Below, piece after piece: positions 3,933-35,424 of a stretch of 64,000 nucleotides of DNA (positions are counted from its first letter, which is position 1; each line of letters begins with the position of its first letter). The notes beneath the pieces were generated by a model that saw only the letters and a list, made by a program, of their open reading frames with translations, was not told the origin of the DNA and searched no databases. The DNA is from a virus (taxonomy: Duplodnaviria; Caudoviricetes). The DNA lies in IMG/VR virus record IMGVR_UViG_3300029288_000008, positions 1 through 64,000 of that record; one strand, written 5' to 3'. Made by a program: the position numbers and the translations under genes.

Positions 3933-5339
3933 TTATTGTTCTGTTTCTTGCAACGATTCGCCTTCTAATGCTGCAATGAAACTTAAAAAGTGTTCTGACC
4001 ATCCGTTAACTTCAGCTGTCCACAATCCATCATAGTTAATCCCTCTTGAGTTTGCCGAAACGTCAACGATATAATTTCTCTTTCCAAACGGGTTTGGAGT
4101 TTGCTTTCCTGGCAAGTCGCAATCCTGACTATCTGAGAAGATAACGATTCGGTCAGGTTCACATCTTTCCCGTTCTTTGATGTATTCTAAACACTGTCGG
4201 GTAAAGATACCCCCGCCGCCTAATCTATCCCTAGAATAATCAATCGCTTCACCCAAAGCAAAACCTCGCCGTGGTTTTAACATTTCTGTTTTGTGAATTC
4301 TAGTCGAATCGTTACCGGCTGTAACATAAATCGCAATTCTTTCACACATTGAACTAGCCAACATTGCCATAGACTTTGCAACATCCAACCGGTTAAATTC
4401 GCTCTTTTCAGAAATTGCTCTGCACATAGAACCGGAAACATCAACAACAAAAACGGTATACCCTTTCAGTTTTGGAGACTGCTCTAATCCCCTCAACATT
4501 AACGTTTCAATTTCTCTCTCATATCTTGGAGCGTATTTAGCCGCTGCCATATAGTTGATCGGTAAAAGCCATTGCGGATTAACCTTGCCAAAATACTCAA
4601 CAACTAAATTTCTGTCAACCGCTGCTTCTTCAATGTTTCTAAGATTTCTCAAGAAAGCTAGTGCTCCAAGTTTACCCTCTCTCAAAAGTCTTTCCCAAGA
4701 GTTGCGCTTATCTTTGCTTTGCGATAATTCAACTTCCCAAGTATCCGGTGTTGCCAACTCACCATTAACTAACCGTCGCCATAAATCCTCTTGTGCTTTG
4801 TCTTTCGGTTTGGCATGCACCATAAACAGAACGTCTCTAAGTTTAATCTCATTGTCTCGATTATACTTAGCCAGTTGGTACTCATTGAAATTTCCAAAAG
4901 CTGACGCCAGCCCTAGCTTTACCTGCTTGGATAACGGCTGTTTACCGTCCTTCCAATAGATAGCCAAGAAATCGGTTAATTGATCTGCTCTTGTAATAAT
5001 CTGTGGTAACAGTTCACCAACATACTTCTTGTGTTCTGGAAGTCTAGCCATCACTCTAGCAATAAACAACGGTACGTGCCGCAATTTCTGATTTAGCCTT
5101 GCTTCAAGTGCGATTTGATAAACTGATTCTGGTTTAACCTGTGGAATCAGTGCTTCAATGTTGTTTGCATTATCAACACCGGATTCATACGCCAAATCTT
5201 CCCAAAGCAAGCAAGACATTACAGCGCGTCTTAAAAGCCCTTCTGCGCTTTGATTAGCGGCATATACACCCATACCACCTGCTAACCGATTTTCAGTATC
5301 TTTTCTATAATCCTTCGCTTTCGCGTTAACCTTAACCAT
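3933..5339 (-). CDS. rsr: TROVE domain protein (Ro60/Rsr orthologue) with vWA domain
   Basis: TROVE-like helical region (LRHVP, QLAKY, PDTWE, ALLRNLRN-like AFLRNLRN) and vWA MIDAS motif VDVSGSM; RBS AAGGAG 8 nt before ATG 5339; adjacent Y-RNA-like genes. Confidence 0.92.
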   Translation of the reverse strand: MVKVNAKAKDYRKDTENRLAGGMGVYAANQSAEGLLRRAVMSCLLWEDLAYESGVDNANNIEALIPQVKPESVYQIALEARLNQKLRHVPLFIARVMARLPEHKKYVGELLPQIITRADQLTDFLAIYWKDGKQPLSKQVKLGLASAFGNFNEYQLAKYNRDNEIKLRDVLFMVHAKPKDKAQEDLWRRLVNGELATPDTWEVELSQSKDKRNSWERLLREGKLGALAFLRNLRNIEEAAVDRNLVVEYFGKVNPQWLLPINYMAAAKYAPRYEREIETLMLRGLEQSPKLKGYTVFVVDVSGSMCRAISEKSEFNRLDVAKSMAMLASSMCERIAIYVTAGNDSTRIHKTEMLKPRRGFALGEAIDYSRDRLGGGGIFTRQCLEYIKERERCEPDRIVIFSDSQDCDLPGKQTPNPFGKRNYIVDVSANSRGINYDGLWTAEVNGWSEHFLSFIAALEGESLQETEQ

Positions 5340-5360
5340 TTTCAAGTCTCCTTTTGAAAT

Positions 5361-5392
5361 AAAAAAAAGACGGGTAAAGCACCCCCGTCTTT
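5361..5392 (-). terminator. intrinsic terminator between the RNA array and rsr
   Basis: Minus strand AGACGGG-N9-CCCGTCT followed by T8. Confidence 0.8.
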
Positions 5393-5396
5393 TGTG

Positions 5397-5469
5397 TCTA
5401 TAATGTTAGGCTCGAACTAACAACCTCTAGTTCCCAAAACTAGCGCTCTACCGTTTGAGCTAATCATAG
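5397..5469 (-). tRNA. tRNA-Pro(UGG), CCA not encoded
   Basis: Acceptor CTATGAT/ATTATAG, anticodon arm CTAGT-TTTGGGA-ACTAG, T arm GTTAG-TTCGAGC-CTAAC. Confidence 0.85.
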
Positions 5470-5473
5470 ATAA

Positions 5474-5570
5474 TTGGGGAATAATCGCAACGAGTCTTTT
5501 TTGGGCGGATACGGGATTTTATTCCCAATACCAGCAATATGTAATAAGTATCTCGTAACTACACCACCAA
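5474..5570 (-). ncRNA. Y-RNA-like gene 4 (degenerate tRNA-like domain)
   Basis: 5' TTGGTGGTGTAGTT...GATACTT and 3' CGATTATTCCCCAA stem shared with its neighbours; GGGA-ATAAAA-TCCC T-arm remnant. Confidence 0.75.
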
Positions 5571-5581
5571 AATAATTTCAC

Positions 5582-5708
5582 TTGGGGAATAATCGTTCAC
5601 AGCTATTTTAACGTTCTGCCGTTAAACTACATCGCGGATACCGCAACGATGGGATTTGAACCCATACCTTTTCATCCTGAGTGAAGTAACTGTAAACTAC
5701 ACCACCAA
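5582..5708 (-). ncRNA. yrlA: YrlA-like Y RNA 3 with full permuted tRNA domain and CAG anticodon-like loop
   Basis: Ro-binding stem; TTCA-CTCAGGA-TGAA; T arm ATGGG-TTCAAAT-CCCAT; loop-closed acceptor CGTTGCG/CGCGATG; D arm GTAGTTTAACGGCAGAAC. Confidence 0.85.
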
Positions 5709-5720
5709 AATTATAAGTGC

Positions 5721-5839
5721 ATATAGGAGAACAAGCGTTTAGAGTTATTTTAGGCGCTTTTCCGATTAAGCTACGCGCAGGATTTGAACCTGATCTCCCC
5801 ATTAACATTGGAAGTAACTCTAAACTACACCACCTATAT
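5721..5839 (-). ncRNA. yrlA: YrlA-like Y RNA 2 with GUU anticodon-like loop and no acceptor stem
   Basis: Terminal stem ATATAGG/CCTATAT; TTCCA-ATGTTAA-TGGGG; T arm CAGG-TTCAAAT-CCTG; D arm GTAGCTTAATCGGAAAAGC. Confidence 0.85.
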
Positions 5840-5861
5840 TTTCTTAATGTTCATTTAATAA

Positions 5862-5922
5862 GAGGAATAAGCGACTACAGCCTTTTTTCTTAGCCAGAAG
5901 TATCTGTAATCTTCACTACCTC
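5862..5922 (-). ncRNA. minimal Y RNA 1 (about 61 nt, Ro-binding stem plus one small hairpin)
   Basis: GAGGTAGTG...GATACTT...GCTTATTCCTC follows the same stem pattern as the other three. Confidence 0.7.
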
Positions 5923-5932
5923 ATTGTTTATA

Positions 5933-5960
5933 ATTGTACCACATATCAAAAATTTGTCAA
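5933..5960 (-). promoter_or_regulatory. promoter for the Y RNA/tRNA-Pro array
   Basis: TTGACA(5960-5955)-16-TACAAT(5938-5933) with TG extension. Confidence 0.8.
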
Positions 5961-5969
5961 GGGTACTAT

Positions 5970-7286
5970 CTAGCTAACTTCCTCAGTATCCACATAATTA
6001 TCATCCGCTTTCAAAATACCCTCTAAGATTTTGAATTCAAACGATTTGTGCTTATAGCACTTCATTAGCCCATTCGCTTTTTCTAGTCTCACTACCACGC
6101 CCTCTCGAATGTGGGTAGAGTCTAAAGTAGAGTTACCAACAACCAACTTATCGGAATAGCCCATTACAATTGCTTGTAAATCCTCTTGTTCTAAATCTTC
6201 TAACAGCCACAAGTCAAGTTGTGGTACAACCTCCAATCCTAATTCGCCGGCGCGCCGTTTAATTTGCGCCCAACTTAAATCTATCTCTTGCCCGTCCTCG
6301 TTAACCTGTGTAATACGATATACAAACATCCTGCGCTGTGGTACACCTACTTCATTCCAGCGACAACCGTAACGGTATACCATAACTTCCCCATACTGTT
6401 TTTTGATTTCTGGTAACTTGCTGGTACTCTGATGATTCATAATCGGTTTACCGTTGCTATCAAAACCGACAATCTCAGCATAGATAACCTCGCCCTTCTT
6501 AAGCAGTCCCCTTAAAGGTTCGGCGGTTTCTAATCTGTAATACTCAGAACTTTCCGGTTTCATAGTAGAATCAACAATTCTATTTCTACTACCAACAACA
6601 AACTCATAATTCTTTGTAACCGTTGGATACTTTGGAAGTGGTAACAGATTATACAGCTTTTGCCACCATTTCAACTGTTGTTGTCTTTCAACCTGTACAA
6701 AACCGATTCTCGTGGAAGTCCCATGCGTTTTTTCCGTAATAATAACCAAGTCGCCAGATTCAACTTTGTCTAAGTTGTATTGTAGCTGCTCAGTATCAAA
6801 GTGACGTGGTAGGTTATAATCGGCTTGTGTCCGCTTTGCCTTACCGGAATTGCCGCTATTGCGCTTCATTGCTCTAAGCGTAGCCGGGGTATAATACTTC
6901 TGACAAATATTATGTCCATTCAATTCATCAAATTCAGTACCCAATTCAAGTTTACTGAGATCATAACCGGTGTATTCAAAATCAGACAATGAGCAGTAAA
7001 ATCCTTCGCTTCTTTCGCCCCTGATCTTCTCAGCGGTTACACGGCCATTATCCGAGAAATAACCGGTCTTGGCTGTATCCTTGTTTAGTTCACTATGTCT
7101 ATACAGGTTGTGTGTACTCAAGAATTCATTCGACAACTGACCATCGCAGGGAAAGAAAACGCCAATGTCCCCGTCTTTCACATCGTTGCCAACAACAACT
7201 TGAATACCCTGCACATAACCAAGTTGTAATCTATCCGCATTCGGATGAGGCTTTATACTAAGTTTAACTACCTTTGCATTATACAT
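5970..7286 (-). CDS. RNA ligase, DRB0094 (Rnl5/DraRnl-like) family
   Basis: N-terminal OB-like PHPNADRL..G; motif I EKTHGTS; YAEIVG, EGVVVR and YKHKSFEF motifs. Confidence 0.85.
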   Translation of the reverse strand: MYNAKVVKLSIKPHPNADRLQLGYVQGIQVVVGNDVKDGDIGVFFPCDGQLSNEFLSTHNLYRHSELNKDTAKTGYFSDNGRVTAEKIRGERSEGFYCSLSDFEYTGYDLSKLELGTEFDELNGHNICQKYYTPATLRAMKRNSGNSGKAKRTQADYNLPRHFDTEQLQYNLDKVESGDLVIITEKTHGTSTRIGFVQVERQQQLKWWQKLYNLLPLPKYPTVTKNYEFVVGSRNRIVDSTMKPESSEYYRLETAEPLRGLLKKGEVIYAEIVGFDSNGKPIMNHQSTSKLPEIKKQYGEVMVYRYGCRWNEVGVPQRRMFVYRITQVNEDGQEIDLSWAQIKRRAGELGLEVVPQLDLWLLEDLEQEDLQAIVMGYSDKLVVGNSTLDSTHIREGVVVRLEKANGLMKCYKHKSFEFKILEGILKADDNYVDTEEVS

Positions 7287-8514: not shown

Positions 8515-9414
8515 TTAGCTCCTATATTTTTCTAGTATTGCTTCAATGTCTGAAACCAACTGATTAACCGCTTTTGGCTTTTCAATAACATTAGACAGAC
8601 TTCCATAATGTTGCTCTAAGCAATTCAAAAGCAGCTCTTTAATCGCTGCTTCATCCGGCTTGTATTTCAGTTTACTAGAATTATACAGCGGCTCTAATGC
8701 CATTTCCTTATCACTAAACCATTGTCTAACTTTTTCTTCTGTCCATTCGCCGTTCCTAATAGCTCTAAGCATATCACAATTACGGCGCAAGTCAATAGTA
8801 CTTTCGGTTAAAATCTGCTCTACTTCTAATACCAGTCTAACGGTATGATACGCAAACTTTAGATCATAGCCATACTTCAAAACAGATTCATACCGCTTCG
8901 ATTCTTCTGTCTTTCCGCTCATTTTTGAAAGTTGGCTGTATGCATATCCTCTAAACTTATGCCAGCTTCCCTTATGCAAGAACATATCCCGGCTATCTCT
9001 AACCATCTGTCCGATTGTAGTTATATGCAAAACACAATCATTAGGAGTATACAGACTGTCTATCATATTAGGATTGTTTTCCATAACCAATTGAAAGAAC
9101 TTTACAATGGAGTAAATGGTTAAATCATATTCTTGACCTTTACCGGCTCTTGCGTCATTATCCATAATATGATGCTCTTGATACTGTTCAAAGCGGTTTA
9201 TCTGTCTACCGAATCCGATAATCTCACCTCTTAGGTGTGGAAAAACATCGTCTTTTGGTGATATACAGAATCCGTATACATCCAAATCAGAGTTATCTTG
9301 AGATACACCATAAGCGATACTCCCCATCATTGTTTCATAATGGATATTATCCGGCAACCATTTAGGGGGTTTTGCCAGTCCTTTTTGTGTTAGTTTGTAT
9401 GTGATACTAGCCAT
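8515..9414 (-). CDS. Pol-beta superfamily nucleotidyltransferase (RlaP/Nuc-transf type)
   Basis: GSIAYG...SDLDVYG, NPNMID, KFAYH.VRL motifs. Confidence 0.8.
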   Translation of the reverse strand: MASITYKLTQKGLAKPPKWLPDNIHYETMMGSIAYGVSQDNSDLDVYGFCISPKDDVFPHLRGEIIGFGRQINRFEQYQEHHIMDNDARAGKGQEYDLTIYSIVKFFQLVMENNPNMIDSLYTPNDCVLHITTIGQMVRDSRDMFLHKGSWHKFRGYAYSQLSKMSGKTEESKRYESVLKYGYDLKFAYHTVRLVLEVEQILTESTIDLRRNCDMLRAIRNGEWTEEKVRQWFSDKEMALEPLYNSSKLKYKPDEAAIKELLLNCLEQHYGSLSNVIEKPKAVNQLVSDIEAILEKYRS

Positions 9415-10751
9415 TGTTTAGCCTCTTCTAAAGTATTGATTTTACCATCCAGCTGCAATTCAAAAGCAGCATTAAGAATCTCTCCAAATTGCTTTCCCGG
9501 TTTCATTCCAATTTCAATAAGGTGTCTACCCATCAAAATCGGCTGAGGCTTCTCATCCCTAACATTCAATTCAGAAGCCATCTTACCCATCTTTTCGATC
9601 TTCTCAAATGACTTTGACTTACGGTTTACATTATTTGTAATTCTACCTTTTGTATCTGCTTCCATAAGCAGCATCAAAAGTGACAATGGCACTTCAAGGT
9701 TGTTAGACAGTCTCCTAACTCCGCTGCTCGTCGTTGCATAACTCATGTGGTGTTTCACCATAGAGCATACAGCTTTTACAATATGTTTAGGAGCGTCAAT
9801 AGACTCTAAAAACCGTTGTGCAATTTCTTCACCTTCTCTTGCGTGTTGATGCGCTGACAGAACTTCTTTATCTGTCGTATTGGGTTTACCAACATCGTGT
9901 AATAATGCCGCTAAAACTAAAATCAAACGATGTTCGCTATTAAGATGTTCTCTCTCTGCAATTTGTGAAGCGTTGTCAACAACAAGTTTTGTATGTTGCC
10001 ACACACTACCTTCCGCGTGGTATTCTTTCGATTGTTCACAACCAACTAATGCAAACAATTCCGGGAACTTCTTTAACCATCCCGACCTGAACAAAAAAAC
10101 TAACCCTTTCGATGGTTTAACGCTTTTAACCGCCCACTTCTCAAACTCTACCCACAATCGTTCCTTTGCCAGTTCTTCAAATTCTGGTAAAAGCGAACGC
10201 GACAAATCACAGGTTTCTTTATCGGCTGTAAGGTTAAACCGTCCACAGAATTGCATACCACGCAATACCCTAAGAGGATCATCCGCAAAGTGTTCTGAGG
10301 TATGCCGTAATCTGCGATTAACAATGTCACCGATACCAGAATGCAAATCAACAATTTCACATTCTGGCAATTTCATCATAAGTGCATTAAAGGTAAAGTC
10401 CCTTCTAAGACTAGCCTCAAGGGGTGTCAACTTTGAATCGCTCTTTACAACAAATCCTTTATGTCCTTTCCCATCTTTGCTTTCAGTTCTAGGAAGCGAT
10501 ACATCCAAATCAATACCATTGACTTTTAACTTCAATACTCCGAAGCTCTTTCCAACCGCGTCTACTTCACCGAATACCGATAAAAACTCTATGAGCGATT
10601 CCACAGAATCAGGCCCAAAGACTTCTAAATCTAAATCTTTAGACTGCGCTTCTAGTACCGTATCGCGCACAAAACCGCCAACTGCAAAAACATCCCATCC
10701 CATCTTTTCTGCTTCTGTCGCTATCATTTTAGCTACTTCTATGTGTGTCAT
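9390..10751 (-). CDS. cca: class II CCA tRNA nucleotidyltransferase with HD domain
   Basis: VGGFVRD..L....DLD, RRDFTFNAL, DDPLRVLR; intact flexible loop RTESK.G.GHKGF; H...LHDVGKP. Confidence 0.93.
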   Translation of the reverse strand: MTHIEVAKMIATEAEKMGWDVFAVGGFVRDTVLEAQSKDLDLEVFGPDSVESLIEFLSVFGEVDAVGKSFGVLKLKVNGIDLDVSLPRTESKDGKGHKGFVVKSDSKLTPLEASLRRDFTFNALMMKLPECEIVDLHSGIGDIVNRRLRHTSEHFADDPLRVLRGMQFCGRFNLTADKETCDLSRSLLPEFEELAKERLWVEFEKWAVKSVKPSKGLVFLFRSGWLKKFPELFALVGCEQSKEYHAEGSVWQHTKLVVDNASQIAEREHLNSEHRLILVLAALLHDVGKPNTTDKEVLSAHQHAREGEEIAQRFLESIDAPKHIVKAVCSMVKHHMSYATTSSGVRRLSNNLEVPLSLLMLLMEADTKGRITNNVNRKSKSFEKIEKMGKMASELNVRDEKPQPILMGRHLIEIGMKPGKQFGEILNAAFELQLDGKINTLEEAKQWLVSHTN

Positions 10752-35346: not shown

Positions 35347-35424
35347 TGCTATCTATACGATTTGAACGTATGTTTCTTAGTTTAACCGGTCACTAAGTGT
35401 ACTATGCCACTATACTAAGATAGC
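35347..35424 (-). tRNA. tRNA-like gene with a 12-nt anticodon loop (identity undetermined)
   Basis: Intact acceptor GCTATCT/AGATAGC, D arm and T arm ATACG-TTCAAAT-CGTAT; anticodon arm CTTAG-TGACCGGTTAAA-CTAAG. Confidence 0.8.

What the first reader, a model, noticed from the sequence alone, without database searches (positions are those of the whole stretch)
5474..5922. Array of four Y RNAs displaying different anticodon-like loops (possible Ro-tethered decoy set)
Seen: four tandem RNAs share a Ro-binding-type stem (GGTGGTG..., ...TACTT, ...TTATTCCCC or similar) but differ in cargo. 5582-5708 is a complete circularly permuted tRNA opened between the D and anticodon arms; it keeps a canonical 7-nt loop CUCAGGA (CAG, Leu-like, 5675-5681) and a loop-closed acceptor stem. 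5721-5839 has loop AUGUUAA (GUU, Asn-like, 5802-5808) plus T and D arms but no acceptor stem. 5862-5922 is minimal, with UGGCUAA (weakly GCU-like). 5474-5570 is degenerate. Established: YrlA RNAs mimic tRNA through T and D arms; to my recollection the Ro stem usually takes the place of the anticodon arm. Inference: unchargeable RNAs that present anticodon loops could act as decoys or sensors for anticodon nucleases (GUU is a colicin E5-type target), or could recruit the ligase through Ro60.
Basis: partly seen in the sequence, partly recalled or inferred. Interest (0 to 1): 0.8.

Follow-up and report, generated by a model that had tools for sequence, protein, structure and literature searches.

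The report
Phage Y RNAs displaying tRNA anticodon arms
A phage encodes, just upstream of its Ro60 gene, four small Y RNAs, two of which are uncharged tRNA look-alikes that keep a complete anticodon arm; this proves common in phage Y RNAs, although the papers I could read say such RNAs lack an anticodon loop.

Summary
On the minus strand, one promoter-to-terminator unit (5960-5372) carries four Y-type RNAs and tRNA-Pro. It lies between an RNA ligase gene and a Ro60 (TROVE+vWA) gene, inside a phage RNA-repair block.

RNA 5582-5708 is a complete, circularly permuted tRNA. When its closed acceptor loop is opened and the Ro stem removed in silico, ARAGORN calls tRNA-Leu(CAG). RNA 5721-5839 keeps the anticodon arm (GUU), T arm and D arm but has no acceptor stem. 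The other two are reduced.

The hairpin sits where Chen et al. (2014) placed the "less conserved V arm" of YrlA. In 78 distinct phage and metagenome relatives it has tRNA anticodon-arm geometry:
- a 5-bp covarying stem and a 7-nt loop;
- U33 in 90%, purine 37 in 95%;
- G37 coupled to G36, as in real tRNAs;
- a 4-5 nt variable loop before the T arm.

The triplet is hypervariable (35 kinds) on a conserved scaffold. Rfam's YrlA model misses this class.

The function is untested. The best guess is a Ro60-tethered, non-chargeable tRNA surrogate that engages proteins reading the anticodon loop, such as host anticodon nucleases or repair enzymes.

This is a new variant of a known kind. Earlier notes of this scan describe similar arrays on other DNA.

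The parts
9390..10751 (-). CCA-adding enzyme gene (PolyA_pol head plus HD domain)
   Evidence: Pfam PF01743, PF01966 and PF13735
8515..9414 (-). RlaP-family nucleotidyltransferase gene (RNA-ligase-associated Pol-beta)
   Evidence: Pfam PF10127, E 8.6e-20. The family is described in preprint 10.64898/2025.12.29.696909.
5970..7286 (-). RNA ligase gene (N-terminal OB-fold plus nucleotidyltransferase)
   Evidence: Pfam PF09414, E 2.4e-12, and PF21189 OB-fold. No sequence match in the PDB.
5933..5960 (-). Promoter-like site (TTGACA, 16 nt, TG-TACAAT) just upstream of the first Y RNA
   Evidence: 11 of 12 consensus matches, the best site in the region. This is a consensus match only.
5862..5922 (-). 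Y RNA A: minimal form, a Ro-type stem plus AUACUU and one short hairpin
   Evidence: Fold -19.7 kcal/mol, z -2.9. The same minimal type occurs in arrays next to Ro60 homologues.
5721..5839 (-). Y RNA B: Ro stem, anticodon-like arm (loop AUGUUAA at 5808-5802), T arm and D arm, without an acceptor stem
   Evidence: Weak YrlA match at 17.9 bits, with the hairpin treated as an insertion. Fold, sequence.
5582..5708 (-). Y RNA C: complete circularly permuted tRNA mimic on a Ro stem, with loop CUCAGGA at 5681-5675 and an acceptor stem closed by a 3-nt loop
   Evidence: tRNA model 28.8 bits on the anticodon/T half. Fold z -3.8. ARAGORN calls tRNA-Leu(CAG) after re-permutation.
5474..5570 (-). Y RNA D: Ro stem and AUACUU motif, with one long hairpin instead of a tRNA body
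   Evidence: Fold, sequence.
5396..5469 (-). tRNA-Pro(UGG), last gene of the RNA unit
   Evidence: Rfam tRNA 63.1 bits; ARAGORN.
5372..5384 (-). Terminator-like hairpin followed by a T run, between tRNA-Pro and the Ro60 gene
   Evidence: This is a consensus match only.
3933..5345 (-). Ro60 / Rsr-like gene (TROVE plus vWA)
   Evidence: Pfam TROVE and VWA_2. 51% identity to the crAss001 TROVE protein. Matches the Thermus phage phiLo Ro60 structures 9L5Y and 9KOP, E 3e-15 over residues 26-461.

Best explanation
The locus is a phage operon of four YrlA-type Y RNAs plus tRNA-Pro. It is transcribed towards the Ro60 gene and embedded in an RNA-repair block (CCA-adding enzyme, RlaP, RNA ligase).

Shown:
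- Two of the RNAs are tRNA mimics in which the Ro-binding stem is inserted between tRNA positions 26 and 27.
- A full anticodon arm, variable loop, T arm and D arm therefore survive. In one RNA a loop-closed acceptor stem survives too.
- This architecture is family-wide in phage and environmental Y RNAs. I call it class A (a label of my own).
- Its scaffold is conserved, the loop frame is tRNA-like, and the triplet is hypervariable.

Inferred:
- Because the acceptor end is sealed or absent, these RNAs cannot be charged or enter translation.
- They still present an elbow and an anticodon loop.
- Bound to Ro60, they most likely act as surrogate tRNAs for proteins that read the anticodon loop.
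- The leading sub-hypothesis is that they compete with or soak up host anticodon nucleases during infection.
- The second is that they dock the neighbouring tRNA-repair enzymes next to Ro60.
For: Gene context: Ro60, RNA ligase, RlaP and CCA enzyme are co-oriented. The window is phage DNA, with terminase, primase, helicases and NrdD.

Architecture of the window RNAs.

Family level:
- 78 distinct arms show U33 in 70/78, R37 in 74/78 and A38 in 67/78.
- Pairs 30-40 and 31-39 covary.
- The variable loop is 4-5 nt.
- There are 35 different triplets.
- Loop length 7 gives 38 perfect 5-bp arms, against 3-11 for other loop lengths.
- Covariation is 0.539 against 0.168 shuffled, with slid controls at or below 0.122.

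Re-permutation: ARAGORN calls a tRNA in 63 of 66 re-permuted relatives with a long V region, but in only 2 of 25 with a short one.

Loop rules: G36 goes with G37 in 16/18 arms, against 5/60 otherwise. This mirrors real tRNAs of the same loci, at 64/111 against 20/426.

Ro60 linkage: 39 of 50 loci found by RNA pattern alone also hold a Ro60 gene. In loci found by Ro60 alone, 20 of 28 tRNA-like Y RNAs carry the arm.

Sealed acceptor ends: the acceptor hairpins are capped by tight tri- or tetraloops.

Loop display alone: minimal Y RNAs without T and D arms often carry a C-U-NNN-A-A loop after the same UUC stem start.

Literature: a competitive-inhibitor idea for YrlA is in print, and phage Ro60 binds phage Y-like RNAs and host PNPase.
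Against: - There are no expression, binding or cleavage data for any of these RNAs.
- Salmonella YrlA works without the arm. Other relatives replace it with a GNRA-capped hairpin on the D-arm side or have none, so an anticodon-like loop is not essential to Y RNA function in general.
- The triplet is uncorrelated with scaffold similarity. That fits neutral drift as well as diversification.
- A stoichiometric decoy would have to compete with very abundant tRNAs (my own reasoning).
- The statistics are not corrected for shared ancestry.
- Which helix stacks under the D stem, the hairpin or the Ro stem, is not known without a 3D structure.
Confidence: 0.55

Rival explanations
1. Structural relic. 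The arm is inherited from the tRNA ancestor of Y RNAs (the dimeric-tRNA origin model). It is kept only as a helix that stabilises the tRNA-like core, and the loop has no partner of its own.
For: - The origin model is in print.
- Relatives do without the arm or cap the equivalent helix with GNRA tetraloops.
- The triplet varies freely and independently of the scaffold.
- A34 and stop-reading triplets occur that real tRNAs avoid.
Against: - A helix needed only for stability would be expected to drift to a tetraloop. Instead the 7-nt length, U33, R37 and A38 are held at near-tRNA levels across deep divergence.
- The G36-G37 coupling has no obvious structural reason outside tRNA biology.
- Minimal Y RNAs keep the loop without any tRNA core to stabilise.
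- GCU and GUU recur on 6-7 different inner stems.
Confidence: 0.2
2. Precursors of working tRNAs. The permuted genes are opened at the acceptor loop by RNase P or Z and given CCA by the neighbouring enzyme. They then serve as two-piece or re-ligated tRNAs.
For: - ARAGORN accepts the re-permuted sequences.
- M. smegmatis YrlA is cut by RNase P and receives CCA.
- Wang et al. raise processing as a possibility.
- A CCA-adding enzyme and a ligase are encoded alongside.
Against: - The acceptor hairpins are sealed by 3-4 nt loops with no room for a leader, a discriminator and CCA.
- RNA B has no acceptor stem at all.
- GCU arms lack the long variable arm of bacterial tRNA-Ser (from established tRNA knowledge).
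- A32 occurs in 27% of arms, against 2% of real tRNAs.
- Triplets with A34 occur.
Confidence: 0.07
3. Generic effector tether. The tRNA-like body recruits PNPase or another host factor to Ro60, as in the Deinococcus and Thermus-phage complexes. The anticodon arm merely completes the fold.
For: - Ro60-Y RNA-PNPase complexes are known in Deinococcus and for Thermus phage phiLo.
- The T and D stems are the most conserved parts.
Against: - This does not explain several different Y RNAs per array with different triplets. No array in this data set repeats a triplet: 0 of 7, and likewise in this window, CcrColossus and Usaquen.
- It does not explain the tRNA-rule coupling at positions 36-37.
Confidence: 0.15

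Closest known systems
YrlA (Y RNA-like A; Rfam RF02553; Chen et al. 2014 PMC4201824; structure in Wang et al. 2018, bioRxiv 10.1101/312249)
   Same: - Encoded beside and co-oriented with Ro60.
- A 5' Ro-binding strand of the GNCGAA(N)G type, followed by YUAY.
- The T arm comes before the D arm, with a loop-closed acceptor-like stem between them.
- The Levitt-pair partner lies at the end of the variable region.
- Often several copies per locus.
- A 'V' stem-loop upstream of T was noted in many members.
   Different: - In the solved Salmonella RNA the Ro-proximal stem is the anticodon-stem equivalent and there is no anticodon loop.
- Here the nucleotides after YUAY form a self-contained 5-bp, 7-nt arm obeying tRNA loop rules, followed by a normal 4-5 nt variable loop. 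The Ro stem is thus an insertion at positions 26/27.
- The Rfam model scores the window RNAs at 17.9 bits or less and 15 relatives' loci below its cut-off of 69.
Circularly permuted tRNA genes (Cyanidioschyzon merolae type, as cited in Wang et al. 2018)
   Same: The acceptor stem is closed by a loop and the RNA's 5' and 3' ends pair with each other. The parts of a whole tRNA are present in rotated order.
   Different: - Those are precursors processed into real tRNAs.
- Here the end-pairing stem carries a Ro60-binding motif and the acceptor loop is a tight cap.
- One copy lacks the acceptor stem.
- No processing motif was found or tested.
[quoted passage not shown] 2018)
   Same: [quoted passage not shown]
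   Different: I could not read the original paper, so the detailed anatomy is unknown to me. The unpermuted crAss001-type RNAs lie 2 kb from an SPFH/band-7 gene and may be closer to it than the window's permuted RNAs.
Phage-encoded tRNAs and T4 Pnkp/Rnl1 tRNA repair as answers to host anticodon nucleases (my own knowledge of the field)
   Same: A phage-borne response centred on the tRNA anticodon loop, encoded with an RNA ligase.
   Different: Those systems replace or mend real tRNAs. The RNAs here cannot be charged, and they are tied to Ro60.

Membership tests
YrlA-type Y RNA (Rfam RF02553 / Chen et al. 2014) | Encoded within 4 kb of a Ro60/TROVE gene on the same strand | tested here: met
   The RNAs lie at 5474-5922 (-) and the Ro60 gene at 3933-5345 (-).
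YrlA-type Y RNA (Rfam RF02553 / Chen et al. 2014) | 5' motif GNCGAA(N)G thought to contact Ro60 | tested here: inconclusive
   The window has GGUGUAG (RNAs B, C, D) and GUGAAG (RNA A) at that place. Relatives at the same position have GGCGAAG or GGCGUAG. Binding was not tested.
YrlA-type Y RNA (Rfam RF02553 / Chen et al. 2014) | Conserved YUAY before the V region | tested here: met
   UUAC in RNAs B and C; AUAC in RNAs A and D. Near-invariant in the alignment of 61 relatives.
YrlA-type Y RNA (Rfam RF02553 / Chen et al. 2014) | T arm followed by a closed acceptor-like hairpin and a D arm with tRNA-invariant bases | tested here: met
   Fully met in RNA C. RNA B has T and D arms but no acceptor hairpin. 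RNAs A and D have none of these.
YrlA-type Y RNA (Rfam RF02553 / Chen et al. 2014) | Reaches the Rfam gathering score (69 bits) | tested here: not met
   The best hit is 17.9 bits, for RNA B. 15 loci with relatives give no YrlA hit at the gathering score. Cultured-phage relatives score 30-50 bits.
YrlA-type Y RNA (Rfam RF02553 / Chen et al. 2014) | Physically bound by Ro60 | not testable with these tools
   Needs RIP or EMSA.
Canonical tRNA (RF00005) | Cloverleaf in natural order, with acceptor stem formed by free 5' and 3' ends | tested here: not met
   RNA C scores 28.8 bits against a cut-off of 29, with a false acceptor pairing. It is recognised as a tRNA only after in-silico re-permutation.
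Canonical tRNA (RF00005) | Anticodon arm of 5 bp with a 7-nt loop, U33 and purine 37 | tested here: met
   Met in RNAs B and C and in 78 relatives.
Processed circularly permuted tRNA gene | Matured into a chargeable tRNA by opening of the acceptor loop | not testable with these tools
   The 3-nt cap in RNA C and the missing acceptor stem in RNA B argue against it.
Anticodon-nuclease decoy or inhibitor (functional class) | Binds, or is cleaved by, an anticodon nuclease and protects tRNA | not testable with these tools
   Only indirect evidence is available: tRNA-rule loops, sealed acceptors and the repair-gene context.

The most novel reading that the evidence does not exclude
Phage Ro60 particles carry a small, fast-evolving library of anticodon stem-loops on a constant Y RNA handle. 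Each loop is tuned to mimic the anticodon loop of one tRNA species, including its position-37 rule. The particle intercepts, inhibits or reports host nucleases that cut tRNA anticodon loops, and hands damage to the co-encoded ligase, RlaP and CCA enzymes. This would give bacterial and phage Y RNA tRNA-like domains a concrete job.
Probability: 0.25. Interest if true: 0.85.

Novelty: new variant of a known kind. Interest (0 to 1): 0.62.

Why it matters
What the tRNA-like domain of bacterial Y RNAs does has been open since 2014. The papers I could read treat this hairpin as a poorly conserved variable arm and state that YrlA has no anticodon loop.

A large phage and environmental class keeps a rule-abiding anticodon arm with a hypervariable triplet on a sealed, non-chargeable tRNA body. 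This narrows the search for partners to proteins that read anticodon loops. It also ties Ro60 particles to the phage-host conflict over tRNA.

The result has practical consequences:
- Rfam's YrlA model misses this class.
- tRNA finders mis-call parts of these RNAs as tRNA genes. Examples are the annotated 'tRNA-Gln' of Caulobacter phage CcrColossus and 17 ARAGORN calls in my loci.
- Cultured phages carry the same class (CcrColossus, Xanthomonas phage Usaquen), so the idea can be tested at the bench.

Tried and rejected
- Rfam at gathering thresholds finds only tRNAs in the window.
- blastn of the region against 50,697 phage records finds only the tRNA-Pro.
- YrlA searched over the whole assembly gives only sub-threshold hits on tRNA rows.
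- My first parser, which took the longest helix, mis-registered arms because positions 32-38 and 33-37 can formally pair. Its output was discarded in favour of a parse anchored on the T stem.
- A threshold of at least 4 of 5 pairs has a high shuffle background (mean 35 of 102). I therefore rely on the loop-length contrast among perfect arms, on covariation and on ARAGORN.
- phmmer of the ligase against the PDB gave nothing.
- I could not obtain Burroughs and Aravind 2016, Sim et al. 2020 or the supplement of Chen et al. 2014. An earlier description of the arm as anticodon-like therefore cannot be excluded.
- The reading as tandem-tRNA false positives was rejected. The hits have the Ro 5' and 3' strands, a closed acceptor hairpin and the T-before-D order.
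- The reading as chance was rejected.

Full report
**What is in the window.**

Everything lies on the minus strand. The gene order is CCA-adding enzyme (10751-9390), RlaP nucleotidyltransferase (9414-8515), several small ORFs and an RNA ligase (7286-5970). Then come a strong promoter-like site (5960-5933), four structured RNAs, tRNA-Pro(UGG) (5469-5396), a terminator-like hairpin (5384-5372) and a Ro60-type TROVE+vWA gene (5345-3933).

The Ro60 protein is 51% identical to the TROVE protein of Bacteroides phage crAss001. It also matches the solved Ro60 of Thermus phage phiLo. The window is phage DNA, with large terminase, primase, helicases, a sliding clamp and NrdD. It sits on contig 2 of a 1.25-Mb binned assembly.

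**Check of the observation.**

The four RNAs share three elements:
- a 5' strand GGUGGUGUAG (a variant in the first RNA);
- the motif (U/A)UACUU;
- a pyrimidine-rich 3' strand that pairs with the 5' end.

RNA C (5708-5582) reads, from 5' to 3':
- the Ro stem;
- a short stem with the 7-nt loop CUCAGGA;
- a 4-nt variable loop;
- a T arm with a UUCAAAU loop;
- an 8-bp hairpin closed by three nucleotides;
- U8-A9;
- a D arm with A14, G18G19 and A21;
- a 7-nt linker, then the Ro stem again.

Rfam's tRNA model scores its anticodon/T half at 28.8 bits, against a cut-off of 29.

As an objective test I cut the closed acceptor loop, removed the Ro stem and linker, and joined the halves in natural tRNA order inside a script. 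ARAGORN then calls tRNA-Leu(CAG).

RNA B (5839-5721) has a 5-bp stem with loop AUGUUAA, a T arm and a textbook D arm, but only 3-4 nt where the acceptor stem should be. It is the only one with even a weak YrlA hit (17.9 bits against 69), and there the hairpin is treated as an insertion. RNA A is a Ro stem plus one small hairpin. RNA D has the Ro stem and one long hairpin. The one qualification is that RNA A is only weakly anticodon-like, with G at position 33.

**Is the hairpin a known YrlA feature?**

Chen et al. 2014 describe four stem-loops in YrlA: V, T, AS and D. [quoted passage not shown] The window's hairpin follows UUAC directly, so by position it is that V stem-loop.

Wang et al. 2018 solved the Salmonella domain. 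In it the Ro-proximal stem is the anticodon-stem equivalent, and 'YrlA lacks the anticodon loop'.

**Relatives.**

I collected relatives in two independent ways:
- an RNA pattern scan of viral contigs, using the motif before the hairpin plus the T loop, with 6-34 free bases between;
- Ro60 protein homology in viral, metagenome and genome contigs, which does not depend on the RNA.

Of 50 loci with the arm that came from the RNA pattern alone, 39 also hold a Ro60 gene inside the fetched stretch.

In Ro60-anchored loci, arrays of two to five Y RNAs upstream of Ro60 are the rule, often with a real tRNA among them. The closest relatives (65-66% Ro60 identity) have a minimal Y RNA, a full one, a tRNA and a third Y RNA.

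**Geometry of the hairpin.**

The parse was anchored on the T stem. The main results are:
- A 7-nt loop gives 38 perfect 5-bp arms among 102 candidates, against 3-11 for loop lengths 4, 5, 6, 8, 9 and 10.
- In 78 distinct arms, U33 occurs in 70, a purine at 37 in 74, A38 in 67 and a pyrimidine at 32 in 57.
- Positions 34-36 have 1.6-1.9 bits of entropy, and 35 different triplets occur.
- Pairs 30-40 and 31-39 switch freely among C-G, G-C, A-U and U-A.
- The stretch between the arm and the T stem is mostly 5 nt and ends in C or U, the Levitt-pair position.
- On an alignment of 61 sequences the covariation score is 0.539, against 0.168 for shuffles (0 of 500 reach it) and at most 0.122 for slid partners.
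- In loci chosen by Ro60 alone, the distance from YUAY to the T stem is bimodal: 8-19 nt, or 21-22 nt (17 for the arm plus 4-5). Twenty of 28 tRNA-like Y RNAs carry the arm.
- After re-permutation, ARAGORN calls a tRNA in 63 of 66 RNAs with the long region and in 2 of 25 with the short one.

**The loops follow tRNA rules, not just a U-turn.**

G37 accompanies G36 in 16 of 18 arms, spread over seven different triplets. With other bases at 36 it occurs in only 5 of 60 (Fisher 1.5e-10, not corrected for ancestry). Real tRNAs from the same loci show the same coupling (64/111 against 20/426), with U33 at 96% and R37 at 98%. This matches the rule that G36 goes with m1G37 in real tRNAs, which I state from established tRNA knowledge.

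The arms are nevertheless not copies of real tRNAs:
- A32 is frequent (27% against 2%).
- Triplets with A34 and one stop-reading triplet occur.
- GCU makes up 15% of arms against 2% of real tRNAs.
- C36 is depleted.

GCU and GUU each recur on six or seven different inner stems. Scaffold similarity does not predict the triplet: 0 of 14 pairs with at least 90% identical flanks share one. No array repeats a triplet (also this window, CcrColossus and Usaquen).

**Where the Ro stem joins the tRNA body.**

- In the window's class the break is between positions 26 and 27.
- Several short-V relatives instead carry a hairpin after the D arm. It is either GNRA-capped or again a 5-bp, 7-nt arm with U33 and A37, so there the break is between positions 43 and 44.
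- In crAss001 and its kin, unannotated RNAs downstream of the TROVE gene are tRNAs in natural order. They have a free 7-bp acceptor stem, and a hairpin bearing both Ro-strand motifs is inserted between the D arm and the anticodon region.

These variants agree that the Ro handle is an insertion into a whole tRNA body. Which helix stacks under the D stem still needs a 3D structure.

**How it probably works.**

Shown: a conserved Ro60-linked handle, a sealed or missing acceptor end, an intact elbow, and an anticodon arm under tRNA-like constraint with a free triplet, all inside a tRNA-repair gene block.

Inferred: the RNAs cannot be charged, so they stay out of translation while still resembling tRNA to any protein that reads the elbow and anticodon loop. 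The most economical function is a Ro60-bound surrogate tRNA. It could be a competitor or trap for host anticodon nucleases, or a docking platform for the adjacent ligase, RlaP and CCA enzymes.

Hughes et al. 2020 proposed that Salmonella YrlA, which their anticodon nuclease does not cleave, may be a competitive inhibitor. The phage class supplies the anticodon loop that such a role would need.

Against this reading:
- Many Y RNAs do without the arm.
- Triplet variation could be neutral.
- There are no expression or binding data.

**Rivals.**

The rivals are a structural relic, precursors of working tRNAs, and a generic PNPase tether. They are weighed in the fields above. The tight acceptor caps, RNA B's missing acceptor stem and the non-natural triplets speak against the working-tRNA reading. 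The 36-37 coupling, and the loops on minimal Y RNAs, speak against a pure relic.

**Novelty and limits.**

Ro60-linked Y RNA arrays in phages and the tRNA mimicry of YrlA are known. In the papers I could read, I did not find the recognition that the 'V arm' of a large phage and environmental class is a rule-abiding anticodon arm with a hypervariable triplet.

Rfam's model does not reach this class. Annotation pipelines mis-call parts of such RNAs as tRNAs, as with the CcrColossus 'tRNA-Gln' and 17 ARAGORN calls.

Earlier notes of this scan describe similar handle-tagged anticodon-displaying arrays beside Ro60-like genes on other DNA. They are unchecked notes and I did not use them as evidence.

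Noticed in passing
L006:5693-5836 and L006:5948-6089 (Bacteroides phage crAss001, downstream of the TROVE gene Gp96); similar in L007 and L008: There are two unannotated tRNA-like RNAs in natural order, with free 7-bp acceptor stems. A hairpin carrying both Ro-strand motifs, plus the UUACUUC motif, is inserted between the D arm and the anticodon region. The first scores 46.6 bits with the tRNA model, with an 82-nt insertion. An SPFH/band-7 gene lies about 2 kb away, so these may relate to the published 'b7a-tRNA'.
   Followed up: partly
L190:1950-2950 (Caulobacter phage CcrColossus, upstream of the TROVE gene gp139): This is an array of at least five Y-type RNAs. The GenBank feature 'tRNA-Gln' (locus 2119-2186) is really the 5' part of a Y RNA with loop AUCUGGA. 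A second Y RNA displays GUU. Xanthomonas phage Usaquen (L191:2270-2870) has three Y RNAs, two of them with anticodon arms (CUC, GUU).
   Followed up: partly
L037, L066, L080, L106 (viral contigs); L009, L015, L019, L178: In Y RNAs with a short V region the extra hairpin sits after the D arm instead. In some it is a 5-bp, 7-nt anticodon-like arm (GCA, CAU, CAU, UCC). In others it is capped by a GAAA or GCAA tetraloop. The Ro stem then joins between tRNA positions 43 and 44.
   Followed up: partly
window 35347-35424 (-): ARAGORN calls a ninth tRNA here (Gly, acc), but Rfam's tRNA model does not list it at the gathering score.
   Followed up: no
window 9390-9414: The RlaP ORF and the CCA-enzyme ORF overlap by 25 bases, which suggests translational coupling within the repair block.
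   Followed up: no
window 1-64000 = contig 2 of the assembly: The window is phage DNA (terminase, primase, helicases, NrdD, nine tRNAs) binned with a 1.25-Mb genome in 17 contigs. The bin's host assignment for this contig should not be taken for granted.
   Followed up: no
loci L016-L189 in general: In native order, ARAGORN makes 17 tRNA calls that overlap Y RNAs of this class. Rfam also calls one of them (L172:886-950) a tRNA at 33.1 bits. tRNA counts of phage genomes that encode Ro60 may therefore be inflated.
   Followed up: partly
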